DNA of 64,000 bases from Candidatus Poribacteria bacterium (GTDB taxonomy: Bacteria; Poribacteria; WGA-4E; WGA-3G): positions 1,183,121-1,247,120 of the forward strand of contig OZ244048.1 in NCBI GenBank assembly GCA_965215265.1, written 5' to 3'. The notes under the pieces are model-generated. The model was not told where the DNA came from. It ran no database searches and saw only the letters and a program-made list of their open reading frames with translations. Shown piece by piece: positions 9,480 through 62,281 of the stretch (position 1 is the stretch's first letter; each line of letters opens with the position of its first letter). The translations under genes were made by a program, and so were the position numbers.

Positions 9480-12179
9480 ATGAAATACCTGTTTGAAAAT
9501 TTACGCGACGATACACAAAAGTGGCGCAGCACCGGATACCCGTGTACAGATTACCCACTCATCGCGGAAATCCTACGTTGGCAATTTGAAGGTGAACCGC
9601 AAGAGCAAATCGCCCTCAAATACCTCCGAGAACCGCAATTCCAAGCACTAGAAATCTATTGGTTCCTCAGATTGGTGCGAAAGACACCGCATATTGTCGA
9701 TCTTTACAAGCACTATTACAGCGACGATAAACGCGACTTCTTTAAAGCGTTCGGGATTCCAATCGATCCAACCGAGCTCCAATGGATTCCTAATGTTGAC
9801 ACTGTCATTGACCGGGTAAGAACTGACCCTGAATTCGTTAAACAGAAGCGAATCGAGCCCGTTCATGAGGCTGTGACGCTCCCATACCCTAGCTATATCT
9901 TCGCGCTCGCGATGGGCACCGGCAAGACGGTACTCATCGCCACTATTATTGCCACCGAATTCGCCATGGCACTTCGATATCCTGAAGGTAGCTTTATGAA
10001 AAATGCACTCGTCTTTGCACCCGGTACAACCATCATAGAGAGTTTACGCGAGATTAGCGCAGTTCCTTTCGAGAAAATCCTGCCCGCAAGCCTACACCGT
10101 GACTTCCTCGCGAATCTCAAGATGACCTATCCACAGACCGGCGCAAAAGAAATTCAAGTCCAACAAGGCAGCACTTACAATGTCATCGTCACGAATACCG
10201 AGAAAATTAGCCTCAGGGCGAACCTGACGCGACGCACGAATCAGACAGAAATGGAGTTCGAGGAAAAAGAGAAAAAAGCGAAATTAGAGGCAAACCTCCG
10301 ACTGCAAAAAATCGCAAGCCTACCCAATTTAGGGGTTTTTTCCGACGAAGCACACCATACTTACGGCAATAGAATGGATAAAGAACTCAAGCGAGTCCGT
10401 GAAACCGTCAACTACATCAATGAGGAAACGCGCCTCATCGCGGTTGTCAACACCACCGGTACGCCTTACTACAAACGGCAGATGCTCCGCGAAGTTGTCG
10501 CGTGGTACAGCCTCGGTGAAGGTATTGAGGATAATATCCTAAAAAGCCTCAATAACGGGATTATCCATTACGACATTGGTGAACGTTCTGATGAAGATGT
10601 AATCCGAGATGTGATTGTTGAATTTTTCAAGAACTACGATGGCGTTACGCTGTCCAACGGTGCAAAAGCGAAAATCGCTTTCTACTTCAAAACGCAAGAC
10701 CATCTCGGTACCTCACGTCTCCACATTGAAAGAACATTGGCTGAACTCGGCAAGAGCCCAACTCTGATACTTGTTAATACGCAGCGTTCAACTCAAACCG
10801 AGATTGACGAATTCAACCGACTTAACGATCCGGATAGTCAGAAGCGCATCCTACTCCTCATCGGTAAAGGTGTAGAAGGCTGGAATTGCCCGAGTCTATT
10901 TGCCTGTGCCTTAATTAAGGAACAGACAACAAGCAGCAACTTTGTCTTGCAAGCCTCAACGCGATGCCTCCGTCAAGTGCCCGGAAATACGCAGCCCGCC
11001 AAAATCTTTTTGGATACGAAGAACCGAAGCATTTTAGACAAGGAATTGCAGGACAACTTCGGAACTACCTTGCAAAATCTCGGTGGACACACCGCAGCTA
11101 CAGAAGAAATTGAGCTCCGTATTCGCAAGCCAGAACTACCGGAACTGCAAATCTCACGGCTAATTTCTCGTGTTGTTCGGAAGGAACAGACCTCCGGCCC
11201 CTTGCAGTTGACAATTCCGGCTGAAGGAGTAGATGTCCCACCTATTCACCGGGCGACGCTAACACCGAATTTCACAAGCAGGACATCCCGACTCATAGGT
11301 AGAACGGAAATTGACGAGATTCCTTTGATGAACAGATCCACGGATTGCTATACGCTCTCGCGGCGCATCGCAGCAAATTATCACCTCCCTTATATGCAAA
11401 CGCTCAAAAGCCTCAAACTGCTCTATCCAGAAGGTGAGGTCCCCAATACGCACCTCCACCCGCTCTACCAACAAGTGGAAAACCAGTTGCAGAATTACGA
11501 CGTAATTAACGAAGAGGTAACCGAAACCCTGGCACTCATTCGTACCCTTGATAAGGAGGGTAAGCCTGTTTTTGACGAGGAAGAAGATGGATACTACATT
11601 CACCGCTTACGTTTGCTCAAACGCACCGTAGAGCGAATGAAAGAGGGCGGCCTGTTGTTTGAAGCAGGAAACCTATTGGACGAACACGATGTCACTTTCC
11701 ACTATGCACCCTACAACTTTGATACCGTGCCAGAACGCCGCTTTTTTGAGGAAATTCTGAACACGGTCAACGCATCCGGGGACGACATCGACATCTTTCT
11801 ATTTACCGGCGGATTAACGGATCCCAACAAAACGGATTTCCACTTTGAATACAAGGGTGTCGATGGCAATTATCACCGCTATTTTCCCGACTTTGTCATT
11901 GTCAAGAAAACCGGTGCAGTTTTCATCGTCGAAATTAAGGCTGAAAGCGAACGGAACGATGAAACCGTCCAAGCCAAAAGCAAAGCAGTCGAACGTTTGC
12001 CGAAGTTGCAAGCCGCCGGTAGCGAATTGAAGTCGGTTCCACCTTTCAAATATCACGTTGTTTATACCACGACGAATCGACTCCAAGAGAATCTCGACAC
12101 GATTAGACCCGTCATAAATTGGATTCGTCCGACTGAAGACTCAGAAACAGGAGGAGCTTATGAAAATTACGCCGGTTAA
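9480..12179 (+). CDS. res: Type III restriction enzyme Res subunit (helicase + PD-(D/E)XK nuclease)
   Basis: Walker A (AMGTGKT) and DEAH box (FSDEAHHTYG). The C-terminal YFPDFVIV...VFIVEIKAE is a PD-ExK motif. The gene overlaps the downstream mod start by 20 nt. Confidence 0.8.
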   Translation: MKYLFENLRDDTQKWRSTGYPCTDYPLIAEILRWQFEGEPQEQIALKYLREPQFQALEIYWFLRLVRKTPHIVDLYKHYYSDDKRDFFKAFGIPIDPTELQWIPNVDTVIDRVRTDPEFVKQKRIEPVHEAVTLPYPSYIFALAMGTGKTVLIATIIATEFAMALRYPEGSFMKNALVFAPGTTIIESLREISAVPFEKILPASLHRDFLANLKMTYPQTGAKEIQVQQGSTYNVIVTNTEKISLRANLTRRTNQTEMEFEEKEKKAKLEANLRLQKIASLPNLGVFSDEAHHTYGNRMDKELKRVRETVNYINEETRLIAVVNTTGTPYYKRQMLREVVAWYSLGEGIEDNILKSLNNGIIHYDIGERSDEDVIRDVIVEFFKNYDGVTLSNGAKAKIAFYFKTQDHLGTSRLHIERTLAELGKSPTLILVNTQRSTQTEIDEFNRLNDPDSQKRILLLIGKGVEGWNCPSLFACALIKEQTTSSNFVLQASTRCLRQVPGNTQPAKIFLDTKNRSILDKELQDNFGTTLQNLGGHTAATEEIELRIRKPELPELQISRLISRVVRKEQTSGPLQLTIPAEGVDVPPIHRATLTPNFTSRTSRLIGRTEIDEIPLMNRSTDCYTLSRRIAANYHLPYMQTLKSLKLLYPEGEVPNTHLHPLYQQVENQLQNYDVINEEVTETLALIRTLDKEGKPVFDEEEDGYYIHRLRLLKRTVERMKEGGLLFEAGNLLDEHDVTFHYAPYNFDTVPERRFFEEILNTVNASGDDIDIFLFTGGLTDPNKTDFHFEYKGVDGNYHRYFPDFVIVKKTGAVFIVEIKAESERNDETVQAKSKAVERLPKLQAAGSELKSVPPFKYHVVYTTTNRLQENLDTIRPVINWIRPTEDSETGGAYENYAG

Positions 12180-13925
12180 AGGGAGAGCGATGCTGCACTG
12201 GGTGGGCAAACGCCCCATCGGCACGGTGAGCAACTATCCCGCCCAATTGGTGGAAACTTGTAACGTTGAAAACCCAGAGAAAGAGCCGCTATATGATGGA
12301 TTTTTGGAGGGGCCGAACCTCGTTTTTCACGGCGACAACAAGGAGATCCTCTCCACCTTACTCGTCAACGGTTTCCGCAGTAAGATAGACCTCATCTACA
12401 TTGACCCGCCCTTTGCCAGCGGTGCAGACTACGTTCGAAAGGTAAAACTCCGCGGCATTAGCAGGTCAACCTTGGATGAAGGTGCTGGGAACCCAGGTGG
12501 GAGTAGGGGGGGGGTAAACCTGCTTCTTTAACAGGCGAAGGTCACTCCATTATTGAACAGACACAATACACCGACATCTGGGCGAATGATAATTATCTCC
12601 AGTTCATGTTTGAGCGGCTTATCTTAATGCGCGAACTGCTTTCGGATGCCGGCTCTATTTACCTGCACTGTGACCCAACGATGAGTCATTATCTGAAGTT
12701 GCTCATGGATGAAATTTTTAGTGGAATGTTTCGGAGAGAATTAATTTGGGCAATGCCGCGTCCTAGTGGATTTAAAACGCAAGCTCAGAATTGGATCCGA
12801 AATCATGATGTTATTCTCTATTACGCCACAGAAAATGCCATGTTTCATAAGCAATACGAACCTTATGAGGAGTCTTACCTCGCAAATTTCGATAAATCGG
12901 ACGAAAAAGGACGATATTGGCTGCGCAATGGGCAAAAGAGAAGATTAGGGAAAGGCTATACACTCGGAGATGTCTGGACTGACATCGACTCTATGCAAAC
13001 GCAATCCGTGAGTCTGAGTGAAGGGCTTGGCTACCCTACCCAGAAACCGGAGGCTCTAATAGCCCGCATCATCAAAGCGTCAAGCAATGAAGACTCCATC
13101 GTGCTTGATTGCTTCGTGGGCAGTGGCACCACCGCAGTCGTGGCTGAAAAACTCCGCAGACGCTGGATTGCCGCAGATCTGAACAGAGGCGCGATACAGA
13201 CGACAATGAAACGCATCCAGACAACCATTGCCGAACACCGCGGAATCGCTCACTATCGCATCAATAACTATCACTTTGGCAAAGAACAGGAACTCCATCG
13301 GCTTGTCATAGAAAAGTATGGTGTCGAAACGGACAAGAAAGACCGCTTCTTTGACGGCACCGTAGAGGGGACGCTTGTCAAAATCGTTGAGCTGACAAAA
13401 CCGCTCACCCGATTAGATATTCAACTTATCAAAGACGAACTTCAGCACCGCCCTGATGAGGCACGCGCTGTTACAGTCCTCTGCAACGGCAGCGAGTTGG
13501 GAATACAAGCCGAACTTGACGCAGAAAACAAGCGGCACCCGATTAATCAACTCATCGTGCGGGACATCCAACGCGACGGTGTCACTACCTTCGCCCCTGC
13601 TGAAGCAGAAGTTGACTTCAAAAGAGACGGGCAACACGTTACCATCACCCTCGTAGATTATATCAGTCCGAGCCTCTTAGGGCGTTTGGAGATAGCCCGC
13701 ACCCTCTTTGACGAACAAGTTGATGATTTCCGTGCGCAGATTGATTGCGTGCTGATAGATACGGACTACAACGGCACGCATTTCAGAATCGTTGAGAGTG
13801 ATGTGCCGGAGCAGAGAACCGATTTTATCAGGGGCCAATACACGGTAGTGCTGCCGCGCCGTGATGCCCGTGTTGCCGTCAAGATTATTGATATGCTTGG
13901 CGAGGAAACTCTCATCACAGAATAA
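12160..13925 (+). CDS. mod: Type III Mod DNA methyltransferase, allele 1 (frameshifted at a G9 tract, i.e. phase-OFF as sequenced)
   Basis: The N-terminal ORF (12160-12531) carries IYIDPPF (motif IV). The downstream ORF (12606-13925) carries FVGSGTT (motif I). The two frames are split at a homopolymeric G9 run. The order IV-TRD-I is typical of type III beta-class Mod. Confidence 0.75.
12506..12514 (+). repeat. Homopolymeric G9 tract inside mod allele 1
   Basis: Counted directly in the sequence: gagta-GGGGGGGGG-taaacc. 7 or 10 G would give an in-frame fusion of the two mod ORFs. Confidence 0.9.
13035..13925 (+). repeat. Conserved 3' module of mod (891 nt), directly repeated at 14839-15729
   Basis: Near-identical nucleotide sequence between the two mod alleles. 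A similar 5' module is repeated at about 12160-12615 and 13968-14415. Confidence 0.8.
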
Positions 13926-13967
13926 CATCAGAAAAAGGACCTGAAGCCCTATGCGAGAGGAGAACTC

Positions 13968-15729
13968 ATGAAAATTACGCCGGTTAAAGGGAGAGCAATG
14001 CTGCACTGGGTGGGCAAACGCCCCATCGGCACGGTGAGCAACTATCCCGCCCAATTGGTGGAAACTTATAACGTTGAAAACCCAGAGAAAGAGCCGCTAT
14101 ATGATGGATTTTTGGAGGGGCCGAACCTCGTTTTTCACGGCGACAACAAGGAGATCCTCTCCACCTTACTCGTCAACGGTTTCCGCAGTAAGATAGACCT
14201 CATCTACATTGACCCGCCCTTTGCCAGCGGTGCAGACTACGTTCGAAAGGTAAAACTCCGCGGCATTAGCAGGTCAACCTTGGATGAAGGTGCTGGGAAC
14301 CCAGGTGGGAGTAGGGGGGGGTAAACCTGCTTCTTTAACAGGCGAAGGCCCCTCCATTATTGAACAGACACAATACACCGACATCTGGGCGAATGATAAC
14401 TATCTCCAATTCATGTTTGAACGCCTGATCTTGATGCGAGAGCTGCTGAGTGAAAAAGGGAGCATCTACCTGCACTGCGACTGGCATAAGAGCCATCATC
14501 TCCGTATGCTCCTCGATGAAGTGTTCGGCGAACAGAACTTCGTCAATGAGATTGTCTGGAAATATAACTGGGCGAGCACAGTAAAAAAGAAGTTCTCCCA
14601 AAAACATGACACGATTTTCTGGTACGCCAAAAGTGCTGAAGAGTGGATTTTCAATTTAGACGAGATGCGGGAACTGTATACAGAAACACAATTGAAGGGC
14701 TATAAACAGGATGAAGATGGGTATTATACATTGGACTCTTCGGGGAAAAAATGGTACGCACATTCAAAAGGACAATTGCCCGCAGACCTGTTTGAAATTG
14801 GTATTATCAGCAGAAGCGCAAAAGAACGGCAAAAATTTCCTACCCAGAAACCGGAGGCTCTAATAGCCCGCATCATCAAAGCGTCAAGCAAGGAAGACTC
14901 CATCGTGCTTGATTGCTTCGTGGGAAGCGGCACCACCGCAGTCGTGGCTGAAAAACTCCGCAGACGCTGGATTGCCGCAGATCTGAACAGAGGGGCCATA
15001 CAGACGACAATGAAACGCATCCAGACAACTATTGCCGAACACCGCGGAATCGCTCACTATCGCATCAATAACTATCACTTTGGCAAAGAACAGGAACTCC
15101 ATCGGCTTGTCATAGAAAAGTATGGTGTCGAAACGGACAAGAAAGACCGCTTCTTTGACGGCACCGTAGACGGAACCCTCGTCAAAATCGTTGAGCTGAC
15201 GAAACCGCTCACCCGATTAGATATTCAACTTATCAAAGACGAACTGCAGCACCGCCCTGATGAGACGCGCTCGGTGACGGTGCTCTGCAACGGCAGCGAG
15301 CTGGGAATACAAGCTGAACTTGACGCAGAAAACAAGCGGCACCCGATTAATAAACTCATCGTGCGGGACATCCAACGCGACGGGGTTACAACCTTCGCCC
15401 CTGCCGAAGCAGAAGTTGCCTTCAAAAGAGATGGGCAACACGTCACCATTACCCTCGTAGATTATATCAGTCCGAGCCTCTTAGGGCGTTTGGAGATAGC
15501 CCGCACCCTCTTTGACGAACAAGTTGATGATTTCCGTGCGCAGATTGATTGCGTGCTGATAGATACGGACTACAACGGCACGCATTTCAGAATCGTTGAG
15601 AGTGATTTGCCGGAGAAGCAGAGCGATTTTATCAAAGGCCAATACACGGTAGTGCTGCCGCGCCGTGATGCCCGTGTTGCCGTCAAGATTATTGATATGC
15701 TTGGCGAGGAAACGGTAGTAACGGGATAA
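13968..15729 (+). CDS. mod: Type III Mod DNA methyltransferase, allele 2 (different central TRD; frameshifted at a G8 tract)
   Basis: The first 118 codons are near-identical to allele 1. The last ~890 nt (from PTQKPEALIARIIKAS onward) are near-identical to allele 1. The central ~385 nt are unrelated. ORFs 13968-14324 and 14284-15729 overlap at a G8 tract. Confidence 0.75.
14314..14321 (+). repeat. Homopolymeric G8 tract inside mod allele 2
   Basis: gagta-GGGGGGGG-taaacc. This is one G shorter than allele 1 and also out of frame. Confidence 0.9.
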
Positions 15730-15869
15730 ACACTCTCTTTCAGAATCTCCAGCTGCCGGACTTCCAACCGTGTGAACGATATCCCCATTGCACTGTCAAC
15801 AAATTTTTGTTGACAATAGCTGCAACCGTGTTATGGTACGTTTTAATTTAACAGAGGAGGAATTCTTTC

Positions 15870-20946: not shown

Positions 20947-23370
20947 ATGCGATTTACCTATTTTTGGCCCGGATGGGCAATTGCTCTCGGCATCGCTATC
21001 GCGATTGGCGTAACTGTGTTTATCTATCTGCGGCTCAACCATCCAGTGCAGCCGACTCACCGATTTTTACTGATCGCCCTGCGGAGCACAGCCGTCACTC
21101 TGTTGCTCGGTTGTCTGTTGGCGCCCGTGGTCATCGAAAAAAAAGACATCACACCTCCAACACATCTCTCTGTCTTAGTGGATACCTCACAAAGTATGAA
21201 ACTTGTCGATGGAGGTACCACGTCACGACTCAGTCAAGTAAATCACCTCTTGTTTGGTGAGATGAACACGTTTCTACAAGCCCTGAGCAAAAGGTTTAAG
21301 GTTCATGTCTACCCTTTTGACACCGAACTGCATCAACCTTTAACGGGTACGGAGCCGTTTGCACTAAATCCGACGGGCGCGTTGACAGATATTGGAACGG
21401 CTGTCCGTCAAGCTGCCGCCGAATGGAAAGGACAACAACATGCAGGAATAGTCCTGATCACGGATGGCGTACAGAATGCGAACCCATTGTCGCTGGAGTC
21501 CGTAGATGCATTGCAAACGCCTATCTACCCAATCGGTGTCGGAGCCGTCGAACCTCCCAAGGATATCCAGATTCAGCGGATTGAAGTTTCACCTATGGCT
21601 TACACCGGACATGAACATGCCATCCGGGTGACAGTCGTGCAAACCGGCTACACCGGACAGACAACTCGCTTATCCCTACGGTCCGAAAATGGCGAGATGG
21701 ACACAAAATCCATCACTCCAGAGAATTCCGAACGAAAAACAGTTAATAGCAATACCCTCGTTGATGCCGTAACATTAACACTCGCGGGCGAACCGCCGGC
21801 ACCTGATGAGATGAGGACAAGCACAAAACAGGTGATTGAACTGAAGTTGACACCCGAAATAGCTGGATGTTTTCAATATACCGTCACGCTGCCGGCGTTT
21901 GATGGCGAACTCACTGCTGAAAATAATCAAAAAACGTTCGCTCTAAAAGTGGTTAAAGCAACACTGAACGTTTTCTATTTAGAAGGGACACCGAGGTGGG
22001 AGCATACGTTTCTCAAGCGTGCCTTAATGCGGGACCCTGACATTGAGCTCACCACTGCCCTTTTCTCGAAGAAACCGCCTGCCGACTCAGCGCTTAAACG
22101 TTTAGACGGGTATTACCCAGGGAGCTCACGATTTCCTGATACCCGCGAAGAACTCTTCAAGTATGATGCATTAATCTTAGGTGACATCGGAGCAGAACAT
22201 CTAACTGCCGCGCAACAAGGGTTCATTGTCGATTTTGTTGAAGCTGCCGGAAAAGCGATTTTCTTTTTACCCTCGCGAACAGCACTCGGTAGGGACGGAC
22301 TCATAAACACGGCACTCGCGCGCCTCTTGCCGATTGAGATTCCCGTCACGGGATGTCGTGTGTGGGACAAAGAGTTTCGCGTGCAATTGACGCGCGCTGG
22401 CGCGTTCCACCCGATGCTACAACTCGGAAACACACCTGACCGGAACGTGGCACTATGGCACGGTTTGCCTGCACTCTCGCGCCTTTTTCGCCAATTCAGA
22501 CTTAGAAGCGGTGCAACTGTACTTCTGGAGAAAGGCATAAGCCGGGTCTCTCCATATAGCCCTTCAAGCCATCCGCTAAGGGCAGATGGCGCACGCCAAG
22601 AGTTTAACGTGGGGAGGACACCCAATAGGGATGCGGTGCTAATTTTTCAGCGGGCGGGGCTGGGTAAAAGCCTCCTCATTGCAGCAGAAGGCTTATGGAA
22701 TTGGGATTTTGGTGAAACAGACCTCCGCATCTATCCACAGTTCTGGGCACAAGCAATCCGGTGGATGGCAACCACCACCCCAACAGATGCACAGCGGCTA
22801 TACCTCACCACGGATGCTTCCACGTACGCAATTGGAGATACGGTTTCCGTTACCGCACAGGTTTATTCGGAAACAGGCTCCAATCTCGGTACAGCGCAAA
22901 ATGCGCTTCAAGCAGGTACAACGGTTCAAATAGAGGTAGTACCGCCAGAAGGTGCACCGTTCCCACTACGGGTTGGACACGCCACAACGGATGCGACAAC
23001 CGCAGACAACCGTTATACCGCACAATTTGAGGCACAACACAAGGGGACATACCGTATCCGTGCCACAAGCACAGCGAGCCATAGTGTGTCTACCGGCGAT
23101 GAAACCGCCATCTACGTTCAGCCGCAGCTGGTGGAATTGGAGGCACCACAACGGAACGACTCGCTGCTCAATCAGTTAGCCGCTCAAACCGGAGGCTCCT
23201 ACGTTGCTATCGCGGAGGCCGATCAGCTCCCCGAAAAGATTGTAGATGTCCAAGTGCCGGTTTTCGTTAATGAAGCGCGTGACATCTGGGCGCATCCACT
23301 CCTGCTTATCGGCATTGTTGCCATGCTGGGGACGGAATGGTTTTTACGCAAACGCATCGGGTTGACTTAG
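20947..23370 (+). CDS. vWA-domain membrane protein with two N-terminal TM helices (BatA-like)
   Basis: Two N-terminal TM helices. MIDAS-like LVDTSQSM (DxSxS). 807 aa. Confidence 0.55.
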   Translation: MRFTYFWPGWAIALGIAIAIGVTVFIYLRLNHPVQPTHRFLLIALRSTAVTLLLGCLLAPVVIEKKDITPPTHLSVLVDTSQSMKLVDGGTTSRLSQVNHLLFGEMNTFLQALSKRFKVHVYPFDTELHQPLTGTEPFALNPTGALTDIGTAVRQAAAEWKGQQHAGIVLITDGVQNANPLSLESVDALQTPIYPIGVGAVEPPKDIQIQRIEVSPMAYTGHEHAIRVTVVQTGYTGQTTRLSLRSENGEMDTKSITPENSERKTVNSNTLVDAVTLTLAGEPPAPDEMRTSTKQVIELKLTPEIAGCFQYTVTLPAFDGELTAENNQKTFALKVVKATLNVFYLEGTPRWEHTFLKRALMRDPDIELTTALFSKKPPADSALKRLDGYYPGSSRFPDTREELFKYDALILGDIGAEHLTAAQQGFIVDFVEAAGKAIFFLPSRTALGRDGLINTALARLLPIEIPVTGCRVWDKEFRVQLTRAGAFHPMLQLGNTPDRNVALWHGLPALSRLFRQFRLRSGATVLLEKGISRVSPYSPSSHPLRADGARQEFNVGRTPNRDAVLIFQRAGLGKSLLIAAEGLWNWDFGETDLRIYPQFWAQAIRWMATTTPTDAQRLYLTTDASTYAIGDTVSVTAQVYSETGSNLGTAQNALQAGTTVQIEVVPPEGAPFPLRVGHATTDATTADNRYTAQFEAQHKGTYRIRATSTASHSVSTGDETAIYVQPQLVELEAPQRNDSLLNQLAAQTGGSYVAIAEADQLPEKIVDVQVPVFVNEARDIWAHPLLLIGIVAMLGTEWFLRKRIGLT

Positions 23371-23397
23371 CGGAGGATTTTTGTATCTTTAAGCCCT

Positions 23398-23777
23398 ATA
23401 CTGCTCTATGTTTTGTTAATTACCGTGAAAATCTCGTCTGAGCCTTTCTAGGTTATGTATCTATACATCAAAGGATTTGGGTGGACGGGCGGCGAGTGGC
23501 AGGATAGGTAAGTTTACGAAACGAAGTTGAGGGTGGCGGGGTAGAGGGTAGCAAAGTGGCGAGATAGGTAGTTTACGCGTGTCCTTCAGGATACGCTTAC
23601 TACCTATTCTGCCAACACACGAGTTATTATTACATAACCTTTGATGGTACGGAGATTCTTTCGTCTACAGGAGCCCAATAAAGGCTGCCCAGTGGGTGTC
23701 AGGTAAAAGGTTATCTTCTCTCATGGACAGAGAAAGATACCTATCCTGCCAACACATGACTCATCAAAACACAGACG
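23398..23777. repeat. Cluster of mosaic palindromic intergenic repeats
   Basis: ggcaggataggta...tacctat(t/c)ctgccaacaca palindromes, a cccagtggg motif, two tandem ...tgatggtacggagat modules and gtgaaaatctcgtctgagc. Copies occur at 24588-24760, 28437-28611, 31478-31618, 32395-32470, 55740-56090 and 58618-58720. Confidence 0.7.
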
Positions 23778-24533
23778 TTGATGGTACGGAGATATACGAA
23801 AATGCGTAAGAGATATAGATACCTAACGGATCTTATCCGTGACAGAGATAGAAAAATAAAATCCTTGAAAACGGGGCTTTTCACCGGGTGCCTTCTAGTT
23901 CTCCTCTTTCCGCTTCAACAGCAAGGTATTTCTCTCGGAGAGCAATTTACCATCGCACAGGTCCAATATGGAGGCGGTGGGGATTGGTATGGGGATGCGA
24001 CGGTTATTCCTAATTGGCTTCAGCTTCTTCGCGCACGCACAGACATTGAAACGGCTGAAGACCGGGTGATTCTTAACTTAACAGATCACACACTTTATCA
24101 ATACCCGATGCTCTACTTGGTCGGGCACGGGAATATCCTTTTCACAGAGAGCGAAGTTGAGGTACTGCGTGACTACCTGACACATGGCGGCTTCCTTTTT
24201 GTTAACGATGACTACGGCTTAGACGCGAGTTTTCGCCGCGAAATGCTGCGTGTGTTTCCAGAACAGCCACTGCAACCGATACCGAACAGCCATGAACTTT
24301 ATAGTTGTTTTTATGAATTGCCGGGGCTCCCAAAAATTCATGAACACGATTCGGAACCGGCACAAGGGTTTGGGCTCTTCCATGAAGGACGGATGATAGT
24401 TTACTACGCTTACAGTTCAGACATCGGAGACGGACTTGAAGACGCAGATGTGCATCCAGGGGATACACCTGTTGTTCGCGAACTCGCCGCAAAGATGGCA
24501 GTGAATATCGCCGTCTATGTGCTAACTCATTAA
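23778..24533 (+). CDS. DUF4159-domain protein
   Basis: YGGGGDWYGD...YPMLYLVGHGN...GGFLFVNDDYG resembles DUF4159. The true start is probably ATG at 23802, preceded by GGAG. Confidence 0.55.
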   Translation: MMVRRYTKMRKRYRYLTDLIRDRDRKIKSLKTGLFTGCLLVLLFPLQQQGISLGEQFTIAQVQYGGGGDWYGDATVIPNWLQLLRARTDIETAEDRVILNLTDHTLYQYPMLYLVGHGNILFTESEVEVLRDYLTHGGFLFVNDDYGLDASFRREMLRVFPEQPLQPIPNSHELYSCFYELPGLPKIHEHDSEPAQGFGLFHEGRMIVYYAYSSDIGDGLEDADVHPGDTPVVRELAAKMAVNIAVYVLTH

Positions 24534-24760
24534 ATAAATCTAAACCTAAGGAATCTCCGATCTATAGATGGCAGTTAAAAGGGAAGGACAGAAAAAGAAC
24601 CTATCCTGCCACGAGATTTGTAAAGATTTTAGAAAAACATAAGGCTTGATGTGCTACACTATAGAAAAAAAGGCTCTGACGAGATTTCTAAGGGGCTTAT
24701 CAAAGCAGCAGCCTTTAACGGGCTGAAATATACAAGAAAACGGAGATATACAAAAAAAAC

Positions 24761-27700
24761 ATGCAAACGCAAAATGTCAATCGAGCCTACGAGACTATTA
24801 TTGCCACGCTTCGCGCCACCCGGAAAAAGTGGCGATGGCTGATTTTTACCGAAGGCGTGCTGCTCAGCATTAGTATCCTTTCACTCGTCATGATGGTTGC
24901 CCTCCTAGGGTTTCAGATGCCGCTACCCCGTTGGATACGTCCGACGATTGTACTGTGTGCCATCGGTGTCGGCATCTATACACTGACCCGGACCCTTCTT
25001 CTACCACTGTTCCGCAAACTGACAGATGCCCAGGTGGCAGTGCGTCTCGAGCACGATAACGCAAGAAAAAACCGGATGCTGAGTGCTGTACAGCTGAAAG
25101 ACACATTAACGAACAACCGGTTCGGGTACGCAACCGATTTTATCGAACAGTTGATCGTTAAGGCCGAGGGCGATATCCAGCATATCCAACTGAAACAAGT
25201 ATTTCAGCGCGAGTTTCAAAAGATCAAGCGGAATGCGGGGCTTGCCGTTGCAGCCTTGTCACTTTCCATCCTGGCGGTATTTTGGTTACCGGCTGCTTTC
25301 ACGAATCTCGTTCAAACCTTCCAAGGTTTGCCACAGACACCGCAGGAGATGCTGAACGTCCAAATTGACGATATTCAGCCTGGCAACGTCGAGATTGAGC
25401 GCGGAACAGATGTAGAGATTACCGCAAACGTGCGCGGGCACCTCGGTGCACCGGTCGCTCTTTACTATCAGGTTGGAGAACTGGATGAAAAGGTTAGCAC
25501 AACGGAATGGCAAGTACTCAGCATGCATCAAAGACCGGCAGAAATACTGTATCAAGGAATGATCAAAAACGTCAACCGGCCTCTACAATACTTTATTCAG
25601 GTAAAGGATGCCGCCTCGGAAACGTACCAGATTACCGTGCATCATGAGCCGATAGTCAAACAGTTCCAACTGCAACTCAATGCCCCGGCTTATACAAAAC
25701 TTCCGCCACAAACGTTAGCAGCGAACATAGGTGATATCCAGACGCTCTTTGGGACAGAAGTCGTATTCACCGGTACAAGCAATCAAACGCTTGCTGAAGC
25801 TTATATAGATTTTGACGAGAGTCCAGACGTTTCTTTACAAGTGACAAATACAGATGATAGAGGGGCAACGCTGCGTGGAACTTTCCTCTCACAACGAAGC
25901 GAAAACTATCACATCCGTTTACTCGCACAGGATGGCAGCACTACAAATCGCGCACCGATCCAGTGGACAGTTCAAGTTCTCAAAGATCGCGCACCGACCG
26001 TGGACATCGTTGAACCCTCGCGAGACACCGTTCTGGATGATACAATGTTAGTACCCCTAAAAGTTGAGGCTGATGATGACTATGGGATCCAGAAGTTACA
26101 ACTCGTTTATCGCGTTGAAAAAGAAGGACAAGAATCGGTAAAGCTGCCCTTAAAGATTTGGAACCCTACGCAGCACGCTGTCTTTCTAACGTACACGTGG
26201 GATGTAGAACCGGTAGGGCTATTTCCGGGTGAAACGCTCGCTTATTACGTCCAAGCCTTTGACTCCGATAACGTCTCCGGGCCCAATATCGGTACATCGC
26301 AAACGTATACGCTTCGTTTCCCCTCTCTATCTGAATTATACGACACGATTGCAGAGGAACAGCAGTTAGAACAACAAGGATTTGAATCCTTGTTTGATGA
26401 GCAAGAGAGCGCGACCGGGTTAGTAGATACGCTCTTAAATAAAATCCGTAAAAGCCACGAACTTACCTTCAAGGATGAAAATCTGATGCAACAGGTCATG
26501 GACACCCAGAAACGGATAGAGGAAAGAGCGACACAACTTCTTGAAGAAATGAAGCAGACAGCGGCAGAGATGGAAAATAACGAACTCTTTGATCAGAAAA
26601 CGCTCCAGAAATACCAAGAACTGCAGGCGTTGATGGAGGAGGCACTCTCTGAAGAACACAAAGAACTTTTGCGAAAGTTATCAGAGGCGTTGGCAAAACA
26701 GGAGTTCACCGCGCAGGAAAAGGCTCTGATGGAGGCGAATCTCAATCAAGAGCAGTTTTTGCAGCAGCTGGAACGGGCCAAATCGCTCTATGAGCAACTC
26801 CTCCTTCAACAAGAACTTGAAGCGGCCGTCAAACAGGCAGAAGCCCTGGCTGAACAGCAGAAGCAGTTGATGACGACGTTAGAGGAGATAGAGATAATGC
26901 GTCTCAATGAAGAAGGTGTCGCTACTCTCGACAAAGATTTCGGACAGACTGATGAAGGCCTACGTGAAGGTAATGATGAGAAAAACACGCCAGCGGAACA
27001 TGCCGACACGGGTAATGCTGACAAAAGCACGTCGTCGGAGACAGCCAACGACTTAGCGCAAAAAGAGGACAGAATCGGGGCGGAAGTGGAACATCTCCAA
27101 GAAAAATTGGAGAAACTCGGCACAGATATGCACAAACTCGCCGAAAACCAAGAGAATCCGCCACCACAAATCGAGAAACTCGCAGACGAAATGATACGAC
27201 TCAACCAGTTTGCATCAGAGCACAAACTCGCCGAAACGCTCCAAACTACCAGTGAGCGCCTGCGTCAAGCGCAAACCCAACAAGCGCTTGAGTCCGGACG
27301 GGAGGCGGAACAGACGTTGTCAGAACTCGCACAAGGTTTAGATAACGCTTTGGAATTCATGGAAGGGGCGAACGCTGATGAGACACAAACCGCCATGCGT
27401 CAAGCTGTTTCAAGCGCACTGCAACTCTCACACTTACATGAGAAGGTTATCAATCAGACCGATGCGCTGCTTGCTGTGGGCGATTCCGCTTATATTCCCA
27501 GTGAAATCCAGCGTATGCAACAACTTGCCGCCGACGAACTCAGTACGGCGGCCGGTGTATCGCAGCTCGCGACGCAGCTCTGGGAGCTCGGCATGCGGCA
27601 GATGGAGGTACCGCCGGAAATTGTATGGCAGCTTAACGCTTCAAACGACGCACTCTCTCGCGCAGCACGTGCCCTTGAAGACCGGCAACCGCAACTCGCT

Positions 27701-28354: not shown

Positions 28355-28611
28355 TGTCATAAACTCATTCTGGCAATAGTGTCTCTGGTGAAATGGGCAC
28401 GGGTACTTTCACACTCATTTGCCTGAACGCTTTTTTGTATATCTCAGCCCCATCAAGGGTTATGTATTGTTAAATCCGATCTAAGTCTCGTCGAAGATGA
28501 CTTAGGTATAGTCTTTAAAGTCAAAACACCAGACGGCTCAGACGAGATTTTCACAGATTTTTACAAAACATAGAGCGTCATTGGGCTCCTGTAGACGAAA
28601 AGAGGTAAAAG

Positions 28612-30279: not shown

Positions 30280-30345
30280 TCTCTGACGAGAGCTACATCG
30301 GATTTACACACAACATAACCGTTTAGGGTTAAGAATTCACCCCGC

Positions 30346-31419
30346 GTGCGGGGACAATTCTTAACGGAGAGATACGAAAACATGACACGCTACACAACCG
30401 TCAGCATCGTTGATGATGCATTTTATATCAACGGAGAAATTACCTATAAAGGACGCTCCTACCAAGGGCATAAGATTGAAGGCTTACTCCTCAATAGCCG
30501 CATGGTGCAAGGGCTCTTTGACGATAGGAATCCGGAGACTGTCCATCGGTGGGAATACCCCGACACCGGCGAATGGGATGCCGAACGAAATACCCGAGAA
30601 TTCCTTGATGCTATGCCGGAATGGCGTTCTTATGGGCTCCTCGCCTTTACTATCAATATTCAAGGCGGAAGCCCGGAGGGCTACTCTAAAGCGCAGCCCT
30701 GGCACAACTCAGGCTTTGAAGTCGATGGGAGTCTCAACCCGGAATACTTGTCTCGACTAGAGCGCATCATCGACCGTGCGGATGAACTCGGCATGGTGGT
30801 AATGCTCGGCTACTTCTACTTCGGGCAGGACCACCGTCTCGCGGATGAGACTGCCGTTATACGCGCCACCGACAACGCAACTCACTGGCTTTTTGACAAA
30901 GGGTATACTAACGTTATCGTTGAGGTTAACAACGAATGCAACGTCCGGTATTCACATGAAATTCTGAGGCCTGAGCGCGTGCATGAGCTCATTGAACGCG
31001 TCAAAGCGACAACACGTGACGACAGAAGATTCCTCACAGGCACGAGTTACGGGGGAGGCAGAGTCCCGTTTGAAAACGTCGTCAGAGCTTCTGATTTTCT
31101 TCTTATCCACGGCAACGGTGTCAGCGATGCGAACCGCATTGTTGAAATGGTACAGCAGACGCGGAACGTGTCCGGATACCGCCCAATGCCCATTCTCTTC
31201 AACGAGGATGACCATTTTGATTTTGACAAACCGTTTAACAACTTTATCGCCGCCGTCAGCCAATACGCTTCGTGGGGGTACTTTGATCCCGGCGAAAATG
31301 ACTATCATCACGGCTATCAGTCCGTACCCGTCCAATGGAAAATCAACACGCCGCGAAAACGCGCTTTTTTCCAGAAGGTACGCGAGATGACTACTGCCCC
31401 ATCATCGCGACTCGGATGA
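30346..31419 (+). CDS. Putative TIM-barrel glycoside hydrolase (clan GH-A-like)
   Basis: VIVEVNNECN (NE acid/base-like) and later NED motifs. Adjacent to the GH3 gene. The start may be the internal Met (MTRYTTV). Confidence 0.4.
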   Translation: MRGQFLTERYENMTRYTTVSIVDDAFYINGEITYKGRSYQGHKIEGLLLNSRMVQGLFDDRNPETVHRWEYPDTGEWDAERNTREFLDAMPEWRSYGLLAFTINIQGGSPEGYSKAQPWHNSGFEVDGSLNPEYLSRLERIIDRADELGMVVMLGYFYFGQDHRLADETAVIRATDNATHWLFDKGYTNVIVEVNNECNVRYSHEILRPERVHELIERVKATTRDDRRFLTGTSYGGGRVPFENVVRASDFLLIHGNGVSDANRIVEMVQQTRNVSGYRPMPILFNEDDHFDFDKPFNNFIAAVSQYASWGYFDPGENDYHHGYQSVPVQWKINTPRKRAFFQKVREMTTAPSSRLG

Positions 31420-31618
31420 ACCGTTACTTTCACACTCGCCGAATGCCATGCGGTATTCGTAGCGTTGACTCAGAATTTTCGTATATTTCAGCCCGATACA
31501 AGGCTGCCCAGTGGGTAGCAGGTAAAAGGTAATTCGAACCTGCCAACACACGAACCATCAAAAGCATAAACGTTGACGGTACGGAGATATACAAAAAAAC
31601 AAAAAAAGGAATCAAGAT

Positions 31619-32383: not shown

Positions 32384-32569
32384 TAGCCTCCTCGTTAAAA
32401 ACGGCAGTGGCGAGATAGGTATTCTTTGTCTCATGGCAAGATTACCTTTTACTCGCCAGTCACTGGGGCGGCTTTTCCTCATAAGAGAGGAAGGGGCTCC
32501 CCAGCAAAACAAGATGCCTCCAAATTATTTAGTTATGTTGAAGACGATGGAGGCATAAAGAGGTCTGTT

Positions 32570-34550: not shown

Positions 34551-34635
34551 AAATGCCGGAGTGGTGAAATCGGTAGACGCACTGGACTCAAAATCCAGCG
34601 GGCCCTAGGTCCATGTCGGTTCGAGTCCGACCTCC
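34551..34635 (+). tRNA. tRNA-Leu (anticodon CAA), class II with long variable arm, no encoded CCA
   Basis: Acceptor gccggag/ctccggc, anticodon loop ctCAAaa, long variable arm, T-arm gtcggttcgagtccgac. Confidence 0.9.
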
Positions 34636-34644
34636 GGCATCCGG

Positions 34645-38145: not shown

Positions 38146-38170
38146 CTTCCTACTCGGGGCATGGATAGAA

Positions 38171-45988: not shown

Positions 45989-46140
45989 GGAGTTTCCTCC
46001 GGTGTTGGAGCACAGCCGCATCCACGGTTGCGGGGTATGGGCACGATATCTTTATCAGTAGAAGATGCTGCTGCAGCGGCTGTCACGGCGGTAGGCGCGG
46101 CACCGCAACATCCGCTTGTCGGCTCAAGCCTCGCAGGGGT
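45890..46140. repeat. ~250-bp direct repeat (second copy 47210-47460, ~95% identical)
   Basis: Spans the 3' end of the small Cys-rich gene, the ATGA junction and the 5' end of the TM-protein gene in both cassettes. Confidence 0.85.
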
Positions 46141-46488: not shown

Positions 46489-46492
46489 CACA

Positions 46493-55713: not shown

Positions 55714-56153
55714 TAGACGTTTCAAAAGATTTGATTTTTAAAGACATTACCTAGAGCGGCTCCGACGAGATTTACACACGAGCCATCAAAAGCATAAGCG
55801 TTGATCGTACGGAGATATACGAAAAATTGTAAGATTTACGGGTTTTGTCGCGGCGCATGCTTACAAAGGTGCTAACGTTCAAAGTTTCTTTTTTATTTGC
55901 GTTATGTTTTTATGTTCACCACGGCTCTCGGCTCCATCTTCCTATTTTCAGAAACCAGTGGCAGGAGAGGTATTCCCAGTGGGTGGCGAGTAAAAGGTAG
56001 CAAAGCGAGTCCTCGAGGACTCGCGATACTACCTATCTCGCCACTTTATCTCTCCTTTCAGGAGAGACAAGATAACCTTTTATCTATAGATTTTGTAGTT
56101 TCATAAAGGATTGTTCACGCCAAATTATTCTCAGCAATACCAGATAAAACAGA

Positions 56154-58600: not shown

Positions 58601-58724
58601 CGGTATTTGCCTATTTGGTATACCTTTCTGATGAAGTGGCAGGATAGGTATTCTTTGTCTCTCCTGAAAGGAGAGACAAGAGTACCTTTTACCTGCCACC
58701 CACTGGGAGGTAGGGGAACCTATC

Positions 58725-61835: not shown

Positions 61836-62281
61836 CTTCAGTTTTCTCCTTAGCGCGTTAACTTATACTTACAATTCGGGAGTTTGCTCCCACAAAATTT
61901 CATACTGATATATTGTCTAATTTAACGTTTTTCGTCGGATTGGGTTACAAAAATGGAGTGAATACTAAATTTATTTGATGTAGTATATACTACTGTGCTT
62001 TAGTGGATGAGAGGCTGCCGTGTGCTATATACAGTCTTCGTCGTATCACAATTTATTGTGTGTCTTTATAAACGGCGGAGTCCGATGGTGAAGAAGGCAC
62101 TTATGATTGGGAGCTCGCTCCACGAAAGGGATAGTTGACATAGATACCGCGTTACGGGCCAGTAGACAGGTGATAACTCGTCCTCCTACAATGCCTTTTT
62201 TATCTCTGTGGTGTCTTTTATCAGATGGAAGGTAGATGGGTGAATAAATTTCCGTTTCTACCGGGACAGAACGCTTGCTAT

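What the first reader, a model, noticed from the sequence alone, without database searches (positions are those of the whole stretch)
23398..23777. Family of mosaic palindromic intergenic repeats recurring at at least seven loci
Short modules recur in different combinations and orientations. They include ggcaggataggta / tacctatcctgcc (a perfect inverted pair), cccagtgggtRgcaggtaaaaggt and ggctcNgacgagattt (also present reverse-complemented at 23427). Further modules are cctgccaacacaYga..catcaaaaRca.a.acgttgaYggtacggagat and the hairpin tctctcctgaaaggagaga. Some copies fold into ~70-bp imperfect hairpins (58628-58700, 32404-32465, 55982-56085). This looks like a REP/MITE-like element family specific to this lineage. 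Copies sit in 5' leaders and have forced the ORF finder to over-extend several genes (32426, 58735, 23778).
Basis: seen in the sequence. Interest (0 to 1): 0.55.

Follow-up and report, generated by a model that had tools for sequence, protein, structure and literature searches.

The report
Small mobile repeats invading poribacterial operon spacers
Two families of short non-coding repeats, a roughly 70-base hairpin and a roughly 72-base unit that carries a ribosome-binding site, have spread through the spaces between genes of one uncultivated Poribacteria-like bacterium, a new example of the known REP/MITE kind of small bacterial mobile DNA.

Summary

The mosaic resolves into two families:
- **H:** a 31-78 nt hairpin with a conserved basal stem, a conserved asymmetric internal loop, a variable apical hairpin and a one-sided tail, CCCACTGGG.
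- **AB:** a roughly 72-nt unstructured unit ending in GGAGATATACRAAAA, which usually abuts a start codon.

Evidence that the copies are insertions:
- Three related genomes lack both families at the orthologous sites. A six-gene operon there has spacers of 9, 11, 21, 10 and 80 nt, against 431, 227, 257, 102 and 199 nt here.
- H copies are nested inside H twice and inside AB once.
- One H copy supplies the last 31 residues of a lycopene cyclase.
- A 31-nt mini-H is present in one strain and precisely absent in the window, with no target duplication.
- Insertions follow AAG in all four cases where the empty site is known or inferred.

Copies also occur in the window flanks and at an unrelated locus, so this is not a single local duplication. 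Nothing matched in Rfam, GTDB representative genomes, JGI metagenomes, viral contigs or plasmids.

Best reading: REP-like, non-autonomous elements, probably moved as single strands by an unidentified enzyme. It is a new member of a known kind, of moderate interest.

The parts
23376..23444 (-). AB unit, reverse orientation, immediately after the stop codon of the VWA gene (stop at 23370)
   Evidence: nhmmer with the A profile, E=1.7e-13. It is row AB23rc of alignment A2. It is 83% complementary to 28535-28587 (I1).
23495..23552 (+). H fragments: a left-arm piece (AGTGGCAGGATAGGTA) followed by a degenerate tail-first arm
   Evidence: Exact module match at 23495-23510 (D9). The remainder was read directly by comparison with 55975-56004.
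23553..23615 (+). H hairpin lacking the 3' tail (copy W23b)
   Evidence: Covariance model R1, 47.1 bits, E=4e-10. Single-stranded DNA fold -15.7 kcal/mol, z=-5.6.
23614..23658 (+). AB 3' part fused to the preceding H (copy HB23p). Together with that H it is an 80%-identical direct duplicate of 23738-23793.
   Evidence: nhmmer with the B profile, E=5e-15. Direct repeat D12.
23659..23679 (-). AB 3'-end fragment (module C), inverted; an exact reverse complement of 28580-28600
   Evidence: I17: 21 nt, 100% complementary.
23688..23751 (-). H hairpin, complete with tail (copy W23c)
   Evidence: Model R1, 60.2 bits, E=1.5e-13. Boundaries.
23752..23801 (+). AB 3' part (copy HB23). Its GGAG lies 10 nt before the ATG at 23802 of the DUF4159 gene.
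   Evidence: nhmmer with the B profile, E=5.7e-18. Gene start from the public gene call.
24570..24612 (-). Degenerate H hairpin (copy W24)
   Evidence: Model R1, 31.4 bits, E=5e-6.
24613..24668 (+). AB unit (copy AB24a) directly following the degenerate H
   Evidence: nhmmer with the A profile, E=1.2e-9; alignment A2.
24672..24760 (+). AB unit (copy AB24b) with a duplicated 3' end. It abuts the ATG at 24761 of the DUF4175 gene.
   Evidence: nhmmer with the A profile, E=3.7e-13; sequence.
28432..28496 (-). AB unit, reverse orientation; left arm of a head-to-head inverted AB pair
   Evidence: nhmmer with the B profile E=1.3e-5 and the A profile E=3.1e-5. The pair 28428-28606 folds end to end, z=-2.4.
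28535..28604 (+). AB unit, forward; right arm of the pair. It ends 7 nt before the ATG at 28612 of the GH3 gene.
   Evidence: nhmmer with the A profile, E=1.8e-14; sequence.
30282..30381 (+). AB unit (copy AB30) carrying an inserted GC-rich palindrome. Its GGAG lies 12 nt before the ATG at 30382.
   Evidence: Alignment A2; sequence; gene start.
31469..31498 (-). AB 3'-end fragment, inverted, on the left side of the H at 31507
   Evidence: I7 and I12.
31507..31545 (-). Truncated H (copy W31): tail and basal stem present, apical part deleted
   Evidence: Model R1, 28.9 bits, E=2.4e-5; boundaries.
31546..31598 (+). AB 3' part (copy HB31) upstream of the Band7 gene (ATG at 31619)
   Evidence: nhmmer with the B profile, E=1.8e-16. 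It is 91% identical to 55774-55826 (D7).
32407..32466 (+). H hairpin (copy W32) between the Band7 stop (32383) and the peptidase M24 start (32570)
   Evidence: Model R1, 65.7 bits, E=5.6e-15; z=-3.4.
55758..55826 (+). AB unit (copy AB55), complete. No gene start follows it directly. It serves as the empty paralogue for the mini-H insertion seen in L012.
   Evidence: nhmmer with the B profile E=1.3e-16 and the A profile E=1.2e-8; compared with L012.
55955..56085 (+). Outer H (copy W55out, 55955-55974 plus 56044-56085), interrupted by the inner copy
   Evidence: Read. The composite row aligns with intact copies in A1. The apical part scores 16.5 bits with model R1.
55975..56043 (-). Inner H (copy W55in), nested inside the outer H in the opposite orientation
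   Evidence: Model R1, 77.1 bits, E=5.6e-18; z=-6.7; boundaries.
58637..58707 (+). H hairpin (copy W58), the best-preserved copy. It lies between two minus-strand genes, 33 nt upstream of the MFS start at 58600.
   Evidence: Model R1, 94.6 bits, E=1.5e-22; fold -23 kcal/mol, z=-6.8; gene start confirmed on record.
62093..62094 (-). Empty site: the sister strain L012 carries a 31-nt mini-H here (CCCAGTGGGTGGCAGGATAGGTATTCTGCCA) and the window does not
   Evidence: It is the only indel longer than 2 nt in about 50 kb of strain comparison.

Best explanation
The mosaic is made by two lineage-specific families of small non-coding repeats that have colonised the intergenic spacers of this Poribacteria-like genome.

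**H** is a REP-like hairpin of 31-78 nt. It has:
- a basal stem, GTGGCAGG/CCTGCCAC;
- a conserved asymmetric internal loop, AT on the 5' side and TTTA on the 3' side;
- a second stem, AGGTA/TACCT;
- an apical hairpin that varies in sequence;
- an unpaired 3' tail, CCCACTGGG.

H behaves as a non-autonomous mobile element. It inserts precisely, without a target-site duplication, immediately 3' of AAG, and often into other H or AB copies.

I infer, but have not shown, that H moves as single-stranded DNA. The likely agent is a trans-acting HUH/Y1-type enzyme (RAYT or IS200/IS605-like) encoded elsewhere in the genome, which would recognise the loop and tail.

**AB** is a roughly 72-nt unstructured, A-rich unit: GGCTCNGACGAGATTT...ACAAAACATA...TTGATGGTACGGAGATATACRAAAAA. 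It occurs singly or as head-to-head inverted pairs. When it lies in the forward orientation before a gene, its GGAG sits 10-15 nt upstream of the start codon.

I infer that this built-in Shine-Dalgarno sequence makes insertion between formerly translationally coupled operon genes tolerable. That would explain how a tightly packed operon acquired 100-430 nt spacers.
For: **Shown**

1. The modules recur far above shuffles. No other dispersed short repeats are present in the window.
2. The H hairpin is supported by pairing. 83.7% of cells pair, against at most 64.6% when the partners are slid. Pairs 9-62 and 10-61 change on both sides (CAGG/CCTG to CGAG/CTCG) in three copies that have different apical types. 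Three unrelated apical sequences all fold.
3. AB has no consensus structure: 0 predicted pairs.
4. Relatives have empty sites.
   - L006 (85% identical DUF4159 protein) has spacers of 9, 11, 21, 10 and 80 nt in the same operon, against 431, 227, 257, 102 and 199 nt in the window.
   - L007 and L010 also carry no copies.
5. There are nested insertions. H lies inside H at window 55975-56043 and at L008 15455-15518. A mini-H lies inside an AB unit at L012 3137-3172, and AB55 is the uninterrupted paralogue.
6. Strains differ at one site. A 31-nt mini-H is present in L012 and precisely absent at window 62093/62094. The strains are 99.5% identical, and there is no target duplication.
7. The 5' flank is AAG in 6 of 16 copies and in 4 of 4 copies with a known or inferred empty site. 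The background frequency of AAG is 1.7%, giving binomial P=1.6e-7.
8. The family is dispersed. Copies lie at an unrelated carotenoid locus (L008) and in both window flanks.
9. One H copy is fused in frame. The last 31 residues of lycopene cyclase P0167 are translated H, and the seven homologues aligned, out of 119 listed (185-249 aa, at most 92% of the query covered), all end 4-7 residues after the conserved LYEKL/LYEQL.
10. Forward AB copies place GGAG 10, 15 and 12 nt before the ATGs at 23802, 24761 and 30382.

**From the literature**

IS200/IS605 elements and REPs lack target duplications. They use hairpins with conserved unpaired bases and are processed as single strands (PMC3333891). REPIN spacers vary in sequence but always form hairpins (PMC3337134).
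Against: - No transposase of any kind is linked to the elements. None was seen among the public gene calls or Pfam scans covering about 97 kb of this species, apart from a YhgA/Rpn-like PF04754 gene with no adjacent copies.
- The whole genome could not be scanned. Copy number (about one H per 6 kb here) is an extrapolation.
- H carries its tail on one side only, so it is not a symmetric REP doublet.
- Three of the four empty sites are inferred from paralogous copies, not from true alleles.
- The single polymorphism could be a loss rather than a gain.
- AB mobility is supported only by absence in relatives, by both orientations and by one distant copy. No AB polymorphism or target site was found.
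- The role of AB as a Shine-Dalgarno donor is inferred from position alone.
Confidence: 0.65

Rival explanations
1. Classical MITEs: internally deleted derivatives of a DDE-type insertion sequence, recognised through terminal inverted repeats and inserted with a target-site duplication.
For: H is an inverted repeat over its whole length. AB units occur as head-to-head inverted pairs of about 175-190 nt whose outer tips (TTTTTTGTATATCTC ... GACGAAAAG) can pair. MITEs typically fold into long hairpins (PMC3184786).
Against: The one true filled/empty allele pair shows a precise 31-nt difference with no duplicated flank. The three paralogue-inferred sites show none either. No duplications are visible around the AB pairs. 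No insertion sequence with matching ends was seen.
Confidence: 0.12
2. Not mobile: conserved cis-regulatory RNA structures and leaders (attenuators, mRNA-stabilising hairpins, a shared promoter and leader) selected independently upstream of co-regulated genes.
For: Most copies lie within transcription units. Forward AB copies sit next to start codons and carry a Shine-Dalgarno sequence. The hairpin shows compensatory changes. Neisseria REP2 is a precedent for repeated upstream regions that carry a ribosome-binding site (PMC3184786).
Against: H occurs in both orientations relative to transcription: about 9 tail-first and 6 arm-first. It is nested within itself and lies between convergent genes in L012. 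It is translated as a protein tail and is polymorphic between near-identical strains. AB also occurs reversed, just after stop codons. Sigma-70-like promoter and terminator matches in the scanned regions, modules included, are about at shuffle level (promoters) or modestly above it (terminators), and none recurs across copies. There is no Rfam match. Relatives express the same operon without these elements.
Confidence: 0.08
3. Products of local duplication, slippage and gene conversion within one chromosomal neighbourhood, not of transposition.
For: Ten of the AB copies cluster in one 8-kb operon. There are tandem partial duplications at 23601-23656 / 23738-23793 and a 110-nt tandem repeat at L012 1040-1250. 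An apical loop is flipped between strains, which shows that palindrome-driven rearrangement does occur.
Against: H copies occur at an unrelated locus whose only similarity to the window is the H elements themselves. The insertions are precise and follow AAG. Slippage between the flanking AAG triplets would leave one AAG, but the empty allele has two.
Confidence: 0.05

Closest known systems
REP / REPIN elements mobilised by RAYT (Y1 HUH) transposases, clustered as BIMEs in E. coli
   Same: - Short imperfect palindromes repeated in extragenic space.
- Inverted conserved arms around a spacer that varies in sequence but always forms a hairpin.
- Conserved unpaired nucleotides at the foot and a conserved stem irregularity.
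- No target duplication.
- Clustering with other motifs into mosaics.
- Lineage-specific and vertically inherited (PMC3337134, PMC3333891).
   Different: - No sequence similarity to described REPs.
- The conserved foot motif is a 9-nt 3' tail, CCCACTGGG, on one side only, not a 5' GTAG. H is therefore not a symmetric doublet.
- No RAYT gene has been linked to it.
- The arms are not GC-rich.
IS200/IS605-family ends and their non-autonomous derivatives
   Same: Insertion immediately 3' of a short specific sequence (AAG here), no terminal inverted repeats in the usual sense, no target duplication, dependence on a hairpin, and asymmetric ends (PMC3333891).
   Different: Those elements have separate subterminal hairpins at the left and right ends. 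H has a single hairpin spanning the element. The strand specificity and the enzyme are unknown here.
MITEs such as Correia (Neisseria) and Nezha (Nostoc/Anabaena)
   Same: Size of 30-190 nt, long hairpin potential, filled versus empty sites between relatives, and fusion with reading frames of flanking genes (PMC3184786).
   Different: [quoted passage not shown] H shows no duplication, and no parent element is known.
Neisseria REP2 and Borrelia IR upstream repeats; mycobacterial MIRUs
   Same: Like AB, REP2 and the Borrelia IR are repeated sequences placed directly upstream of many unrelated genes, and they carry the ribosome-binding site. MIRUs sit in spacers between genes of operons and are absent from the orthologous sites of relatives (PMC3184786).
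   Different: REP2 contains a promoter, an ATG and two internal stem-loops. AB has no consensus structure, no detectable sigma-70 promoter and ends before the ATG. AB also occurs reversed and as inverted pairs. MIRUs are tandem units with small overlapping reading frames.

Membership tests
REP/REPIN-RAYT system | Short imperfect palindrome, many copies, almost only extragenic | tested here: met
   About 16 H copies in roughly 97 kb. All are intergenic except one that overlaps a gene's 3' end. The genome-wide count is unknown.
REP/REPIN-RAYT system | Two conserved units in inverted orientation around a variable spacer that still forms a hairpin (REPIN) | tested here: inconclusive
   The arms are conserved, and three unrelated apical sequences all fold. 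However, the tail CCCACTGGG is present on one side only. The 31-36 nt mini-H copies look like singlets.
REP/REPIN-RAYT system | A single-copy Y1/HUH transposase gene (RAYT) flanked by the repeats | not testable with these tools
   Only about 97 kb of the 4.83-Mb genome could be read. No such gene appears in the gene tables or Pfam scans.
REP/REPIN-RAYT system | Conserved unpaired foot nucleotides plus a stem irregularity needed for recognition (GTAG plus mismatch in E. coli) | tested here: inconclusive
   GTAG is absent. Analogous features are present and conserved: the 9-nt tail and the AT/TTTA internal loop are nearly invariant in alignment A1.
REP/REPIN-RAYT and IS200/IS605-like transposition | Insertion without target-site duplication | tested here: met
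   There is a precise 31-nt difference between L012 and the window at 62093/62094, and both alleles have the same flanks.
IS200/IS605-derived elements | Insertion 3' of a specific short target sequence | tested here: met
   AAG precedes the element in 4 of 4 cases with an empty site and in 6 of 16 copies overall, P=1.6e-7. Three of the four empty sites are inferred from paralogues.
IS200/IS605-derived elements | Distinct subterminal hairpins at the left and right ends | tested here: not met
   Each copy forms a single hairpin spanning the element.
MITE (TIR/DDE type) | Target-site duplication flanking the element | tested here: not met
   None is present at the polymorphic site or at the three nested sites.
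MITE (TIR/DDE type) | Terminal inverted repeats shared with a full-length insertion sequence | not testable with these tools
   Inverted arms exist, but no parent element could be searched for in the genome.
Neisseria REP2-type upstream repeat (considered for AB) | Sits immediately upstream of genes and carries the ribosome-binding site | tested here: met
   GGAG lies 10, 15 and 12 nt before the ATGs at 23802, 24761 and 30382. AB28 ends 7 nt before 28612. AB55 and the reversed copies do not precede a gene.
Neisseria REP2-type upstream repeat (considered for AB) | Contains a promoter, an ATG and two internal stem-loops | tested here: not met
   Across the scanned regions, sigma-70-like promoter matches are about at the number in shuffles, and the only one overlapping a module is a single 9-of-12 match inside the H cluster. 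There are 0 consensus base pairs. AB ends before the ATG.
Any curated RNA family (Rfam 15) | Match at the gathering score, or E below 0.01 with relaxed filters | tested here: not met
   The only matches in the window are tmRNA and a tRNA. The relaxed scans of 23300-24800 and 55700-56160 gave nothing better than E=0.079.

The most novel reading that the evidence does not exclude
H and AB together may form a self-compensating operon invader. H would be a new class of single-hairpin element that is moved as a single strand, recognised through its asymmetric loop and 9-nt tail by an undescribed enzyme, and targeted to AAG. AB would carry its own ribosome-binding site, so that insertion between translationally coupled genes restores translation of the downstream gene. 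That would let the elements break up tight operons at little cost and rewire their expression in a sponge-symbiont lineage.
Probability: 0.2. Interest if true: 0.6.

Novelty: new member of a known kind. Interest (0 to 1): 0.4.

Why it matters
- **New sequence families.** These appear to be undescribed small mobile repeats in Candidatus Poribacteria, an uncultivated phylum. I found no literature on such repeats there.
- **Before-and-after view.** They show repeats expanding operon spacers. They also give a precise filled/empty allele and a candidate target, AAG. Together these make the transposition chemistry testable once the full genome is scanned for the enzyme.
- **Annotation.** The repeats explain over-extended ORFs and a spurious-looking protein tail in this genome.
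- **Strain typing.** The copies could serve as markers for typing strains in metagenomes.
- **Limits.** The phenomenon itself (REP, MITE, REP2, MIRU) is well known, so nothing here is conceptually new unless the mobilising enzyme or the Shine-Dalgarno-donor idea proves unusual.

Tried and rejected
- **Public collection scans.** The exact-pattern scan of 185,579 GTDB representative genomes with the H right arm gave two hits, both chance matches on reading. The JGI metagenome scan also gave two chance hits. Viral contigs gave none for H or AB. A distant BLAST of 23371-23801 against plasmids gave none. The window's own genome seems absent from, or masked in, the genome collection, so no whole-genome count was possible.
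- **Rfam.** No family matched.
- **Promoter and terminator scans.** Promoter-like matches are at about the number in shuffles; terminator-like matches are modestly above it (21 against 11.3 and 6 against 4.1), but none recurs across module copies in a consistent orientation. The one terminator-like hit in W58 is on the strand opposite to the genes.
- **An autonomous partner in the window.** The 1.8-kb direct repeats at 12.1-15.7 kb are duplicated DNA-methylase genes, not insertion sequences. No Y1 or DDE transposase turned up in the Pfam scans or gene tables.
- **Failed look-ups.** Two look-ups were lost on proteins whose exact sequence is not on record.
- **Six-frame peptide search.** A chimeric six-frame peptide query found only one repeat-containing protein, P0167. 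Gene callers rarely translate these repeats.
- **Integron attC sites.** Rejected. The gene order is conserved in relatives without the elements, and by direct reading the H termini are TGGCAGG and CCCACTGGG, not GTTRRRY core sites.
- **CRISPR.** Rejected: there is no regular spacing.
- **Hammerhead-like CUGANGAG in the A module.** Rejected, because the variable position is A, C or T.
- **ECF-type promoter (GAAC...CGTT).** Present only in copy HB31 and not conserved.
- **Orientation of H relative to transcription.** About 9 against 6, so no bias.
Full report
**Observation**

The stretch 23398-23777 lies in a 431-nt spacer between a VWA-domain gene (stop at 23370) and a DUF4159 gene (ATG at 23802).

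| Module | Matches | Expected |
|---|---|---|
| GGCAGGATAGGTA (up to 2 mismatches) | 9 | 0.66 |
| CCCAGTGGGTRGCAGGTAAAAGGT | 4 | 0 |
| GGCTCNGACGAGATTT (exact) | 4 | 0.13 |
| ACGTTGAYGGTACGGAGAT | 4 | 0.04 |
| TCTCTCCTGAAAGGAGAGA | 2 sites | 0.04 |

A repeat search and a short-word self-BLAST found no other dispersed short repeats in the window. All such hits join the same eight spacers: 23371-23801, 24534-24760, 28355-28611, 30280-30381, 31420-31618, 32384-32569, 55714-56153 and 58601-58724. That is 8 of the 22 spacers of at least 80 nt.

**Source organism**

- The window belongs to a 4,833,177-bp contig held by NCBI and ENA.
- Three further assemblies of the same species are 99.3-99.9% identical where they overlap.
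- The closest other genomes encode DUF4159 proteins at most 85% identical.
- Several clusters at 74-79% identity are named Candidatus Poribacteria, as are lycopene cyclase homologues.

**Two families**

*H.* Aligning the palindromic copies gives a hairpin of about 70 nt (alignment A1). Its parts are:
- a basal stem, GTGGCAGG/CCTGCCAC;
- an asymmetric internal loop, AT on the 5' side and TTTA on the 3' side;
- a second stem, AGGTA/TACCT;
- an apical hairpin of three unrelated sequence types;
- an unpaired 3' tail, CCCACTGGG.

All copies fold this way as single strands, with z-scores from -2.1 to -8.4. On the alignment 83.7% of cells pair, against at most 64.6% when the partners are slid. Pairs 9-62 and 10-61 change on both sides (CAGG/CCTG to CGAG/CTCG) in three copies that have different apical types.

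A covariance model built from A1 recovers the known copies and finds no others in the window. It finds none in the relatives L006, L007 or L010.

*AB.* The remaining modules (GGCTCNGACGAGATTT, the ACACAYGA...CATCAAAA stretch, GGTACGGAGATATAC and TTTCGTCTACAGGAGCCCAAT) proved to be parts or variants of one unit of about 72 nt. Twelve copies or fragments lie in the window, ten of them in alignment A2.
- AB has no consensus secondary structure.
- It occurs in both orientations.
- It forms head-to-head inverted pairs at 28432-28604 and at L012 3009-3197, and flanks H in inverted fashion at 23659-23801 and 31469-31598.

**Evidence that the copies are insertions**

*Empty orthologous sites.* In L006 the genes VWA, DUF4159, DUF4175, GH3, a hypothetical gene and Band7 follow each other with the spacers below. 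Nucleotide similarity stops at the stop codons and resumes about 10 nt before the start codons.

| Spacer | 1 | 2 | 3 | 4 | 5 |
|---|---|---|---|---|---|
| L006 (nt) | 9 | 11 | 21 | 10 | 80 |
| Window (nt) | 431 | 227 | 257 | 102 | 199 |

L007 likewise has short spacers and no copies.

*Nesting.*
- At 55955-56085 a complete H (55975-56043) sits inside another H in the opposite orientation.
- At L008 15428-15563 an H of one apical type sits inside an H of another type.
- At L012 3137-3172 a 36-nt mini-H interrupts an AB unit between CATAAG and CGTTGATCG. These two sequences are contiguous in the paralogue AB55.

*Strain polymorphism.* L012 carries CCCAGTGGGTGGCAGGATAGGTATTCTGCCA between GTGCCTT and CTTCACC. 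The window reads GTGCCTTCTTCACC at 62093/62094. This is the only indel longer than 2 nt in about 50 kb of strain comparison (L003, L011 and L012 against the window), and no flanking base is duplicated.

*Target.* Read in the arm-to-tail orientation, the three bases before the element are AAG in all four cases with a known or inferred empty site. They are AAG in 6 of 16 copies overall, against a background of 1.7% (P=1.6e-7). Slippage between the two AAG triplets that flank the polymorphic copy would leave one AAG. The empty allele has two, which argues for precise insertion or excision.

**Dispersal**

The whole genome could not be scanned, so I translated the repeats in all open frames and searched the protein collection with the concatenated peptides. 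One protein from the same 4.83-Mb contig matched. It is a lycopene cyclase whose last 31 residues (WQDRYSLSLLSGEKRLPFTYHPLGGGIHDKK) are a translated H.
- Its locus, L008, is unrelated to the window apart from the H copies. It holds an H at the 3' end of the cyclase gene and the nested pair 5 kb away.
- The seven homologues aligned, out of 119 listed (185-249 aa, at most 92% of the query covered), all end 4-7 residues after the conserved LYEKL/LYEQL.
- In the relative L010 the cyclase gene overlaps the next gene by 11 nt, and the spacer that holds the nested pair is 42 nt instead of 182 nt.

The window flanks add one H (L011 1459-1528), two H (L012 970-1039 and 3137-3172) and five AB copies. 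The density is about one H per 6 kb in the contiguous 76 kb. Extrapolating that to the whole genome is only a guess.

**What the elements do to genes**

Forward AB copies end at or just before start codons:

| Gene start (ATG) | Distance from the AB GGAG | Note |
|---|---|---|
| 23802 | 10 nt | |
| 24761 | 15 nt | |
| 30382 | 12 nt | |
| 28612 | n/a | AB28 ends 7 nt upstream; the native-looking GAGGTAAAAG is retained |

In L008 the H tail, CTGGGAGGAGG, supplies the AGGAGG before the downstream ATG.

I therefore infer that these elements are tolerated in operons because they bring, or leave intact, a ribosome-binding site. This is not shown. Other AB copies are reversed just after stop codons, or lie between convergent genes (L012 3099-3197), so AB is not simply a leader.

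The sequences on record start at 23802, 32570 and 58600. A public gene call in L012 (start at 1164) does begin inside an AB unit.

**Mechanism**

Shown:
- a conserved hairpin with a conserved irregular loop and a one-sided tail;
- precise insertion without duplication;
- a specific 3-nt flank on one side;
- both orientations.

These are the hallmarks of elements handled as single-stranded DNA by HUH/Y1 enzymes. IS200/IS605 elements lack terminal repeats and target duplications and insert next to a short target. The E. coli REP transposase needs a conserved foot tetranucleotide and a stem mismatch (PMC3333891). REPIN spacers vary in sequence but always form hairpins (PMC3337134). I therefore consider a RAYT-like or IS200-like enzyme acting in trans the most likely agent.

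No such gene was seen in about 97 kb, and the single-sided tail and single hairpin differ from both paradigms. A classical MITE is less likely because the duplication is missing. A purely regulatory RNA is unlikely given the nesting, both orientations, translation as protein and polymorphism. Purely local duplication is excluded by the unrelated locus.

**Comparison and novelty**

No match was found in Rfam, in GTDB representative genomes, in JGI metagenomes, in viral contigs or in plasmids. Literature searches found nothing on such repeats in Poribacteria.

In kind, H is closest to REP/REPIN elements. AB is closest to Neisseria REP2 and to MIRUs (PMC3184786). The combination resembles a BIME-type mosaic.

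Verdict: a real, lineage-specific pair of small repeat families. It is a new member of a known kind, of moderate interest. The useful handles are the filled/empty allele and the AAG target.

Noticed in passing
window 58665-58669: The apical loop of the H copy W58 is reverse-complemented between strains: TGAAA in the window and TTTCA in L012, seen as three adjacent substitutions at 58666-58668. The copies at 56049-56067 and at L008 10680-10700 also carry TTTCA. This looks like a hairpin-loop flip, which would imply that the palindrome is extruded or recombines in vivo.
   Followed up: partly
window 12154-15770: Two tandem direct repeats of about 1.8 kb, 93-99% identical, each encode an N6/N4 DNA methylase (12606-13925 and 14284-15729). 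They lie just after a ResIII helicase that gives a weak, sub-threshold Pfam match to a TnsA-like endonuclease N-terminal domain (9480-12179). This looks like a duplicated modification gene of a restriction system.
   Followed up: partly
window about 6604-7653: The gene is called PF04754 Transposase_31 (YhgA/Rpn-like) in the public gene table of the sister strain. No H or AB copy lies next to it.
   Followed up: no
window 55857-56000: A possible 47-codon ORF (MLTKVLTFKVSFLFALCFYVHH...) lies downstream of AB55. Its last roughly 15 codons run into the nested H elements. The small ORF after the orthologous permease gene in L010 is unrelated.
   Followed up: partly
window 30340-30353; L007 10780-10860: A GC-rich palindrome, CCCCGCGTGCGGGG, flanked by a second inverted repeat (TTAAGAATT/AATTCTTAA), sits inside the AB unit before 30382. 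The relative L007 has CCCCTGCTTTGCAGGGG and CCCCGCAAAGCGGGG in its DUF4159-DUF4175 spacer. This may be a different REP-like family shared more widely among these genomes.
   Followed up: partly
window 28404-28428 and 31423-31447: A further shared motif, (G)TTACTTTCACACTC, occurs shortly after the stop codons of two operon genes. It was not assigned to H or AB.
   Followed up: no
L012 1040-1250: There is a tandem duplication of a 110-nt unit made of an AB unit plus an upstream extension. The extension contains the A module in inverted orientation (AATCTCGTCGGAG ... CTCCGACGAGATT). The public gene call starting at L012 1164 begins inside it.
   Followed up: partly
window 37796-38148, with 37133-37606: A tmRNA gene (tag peptide ADEELALAA) lies next to smpB, and tRNA-Leu(CAA) is at 34554-34642.
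   Followed up: no
window 32000-64000: GC skew is near zero or slightly negative up to about 32 kb and clearly positive (+0.08 to +0.2) from about 36 kb onward, although most genes on both sides are on the + strand. This may be a replication-related skew switch.
   Followed up: no
window 38802-38915 and 44233-44368: There are in-frame tandem repeats with periods of 12 and 18 nt inside coding regions (GATGCGGAT-type and CCGCTGCC-type), that is, low-complexity protein repeats. Paralogous ORFs without Pfam matches lie at 45227-47341 and are 94% identical over 300 nt.
   Followed up: no
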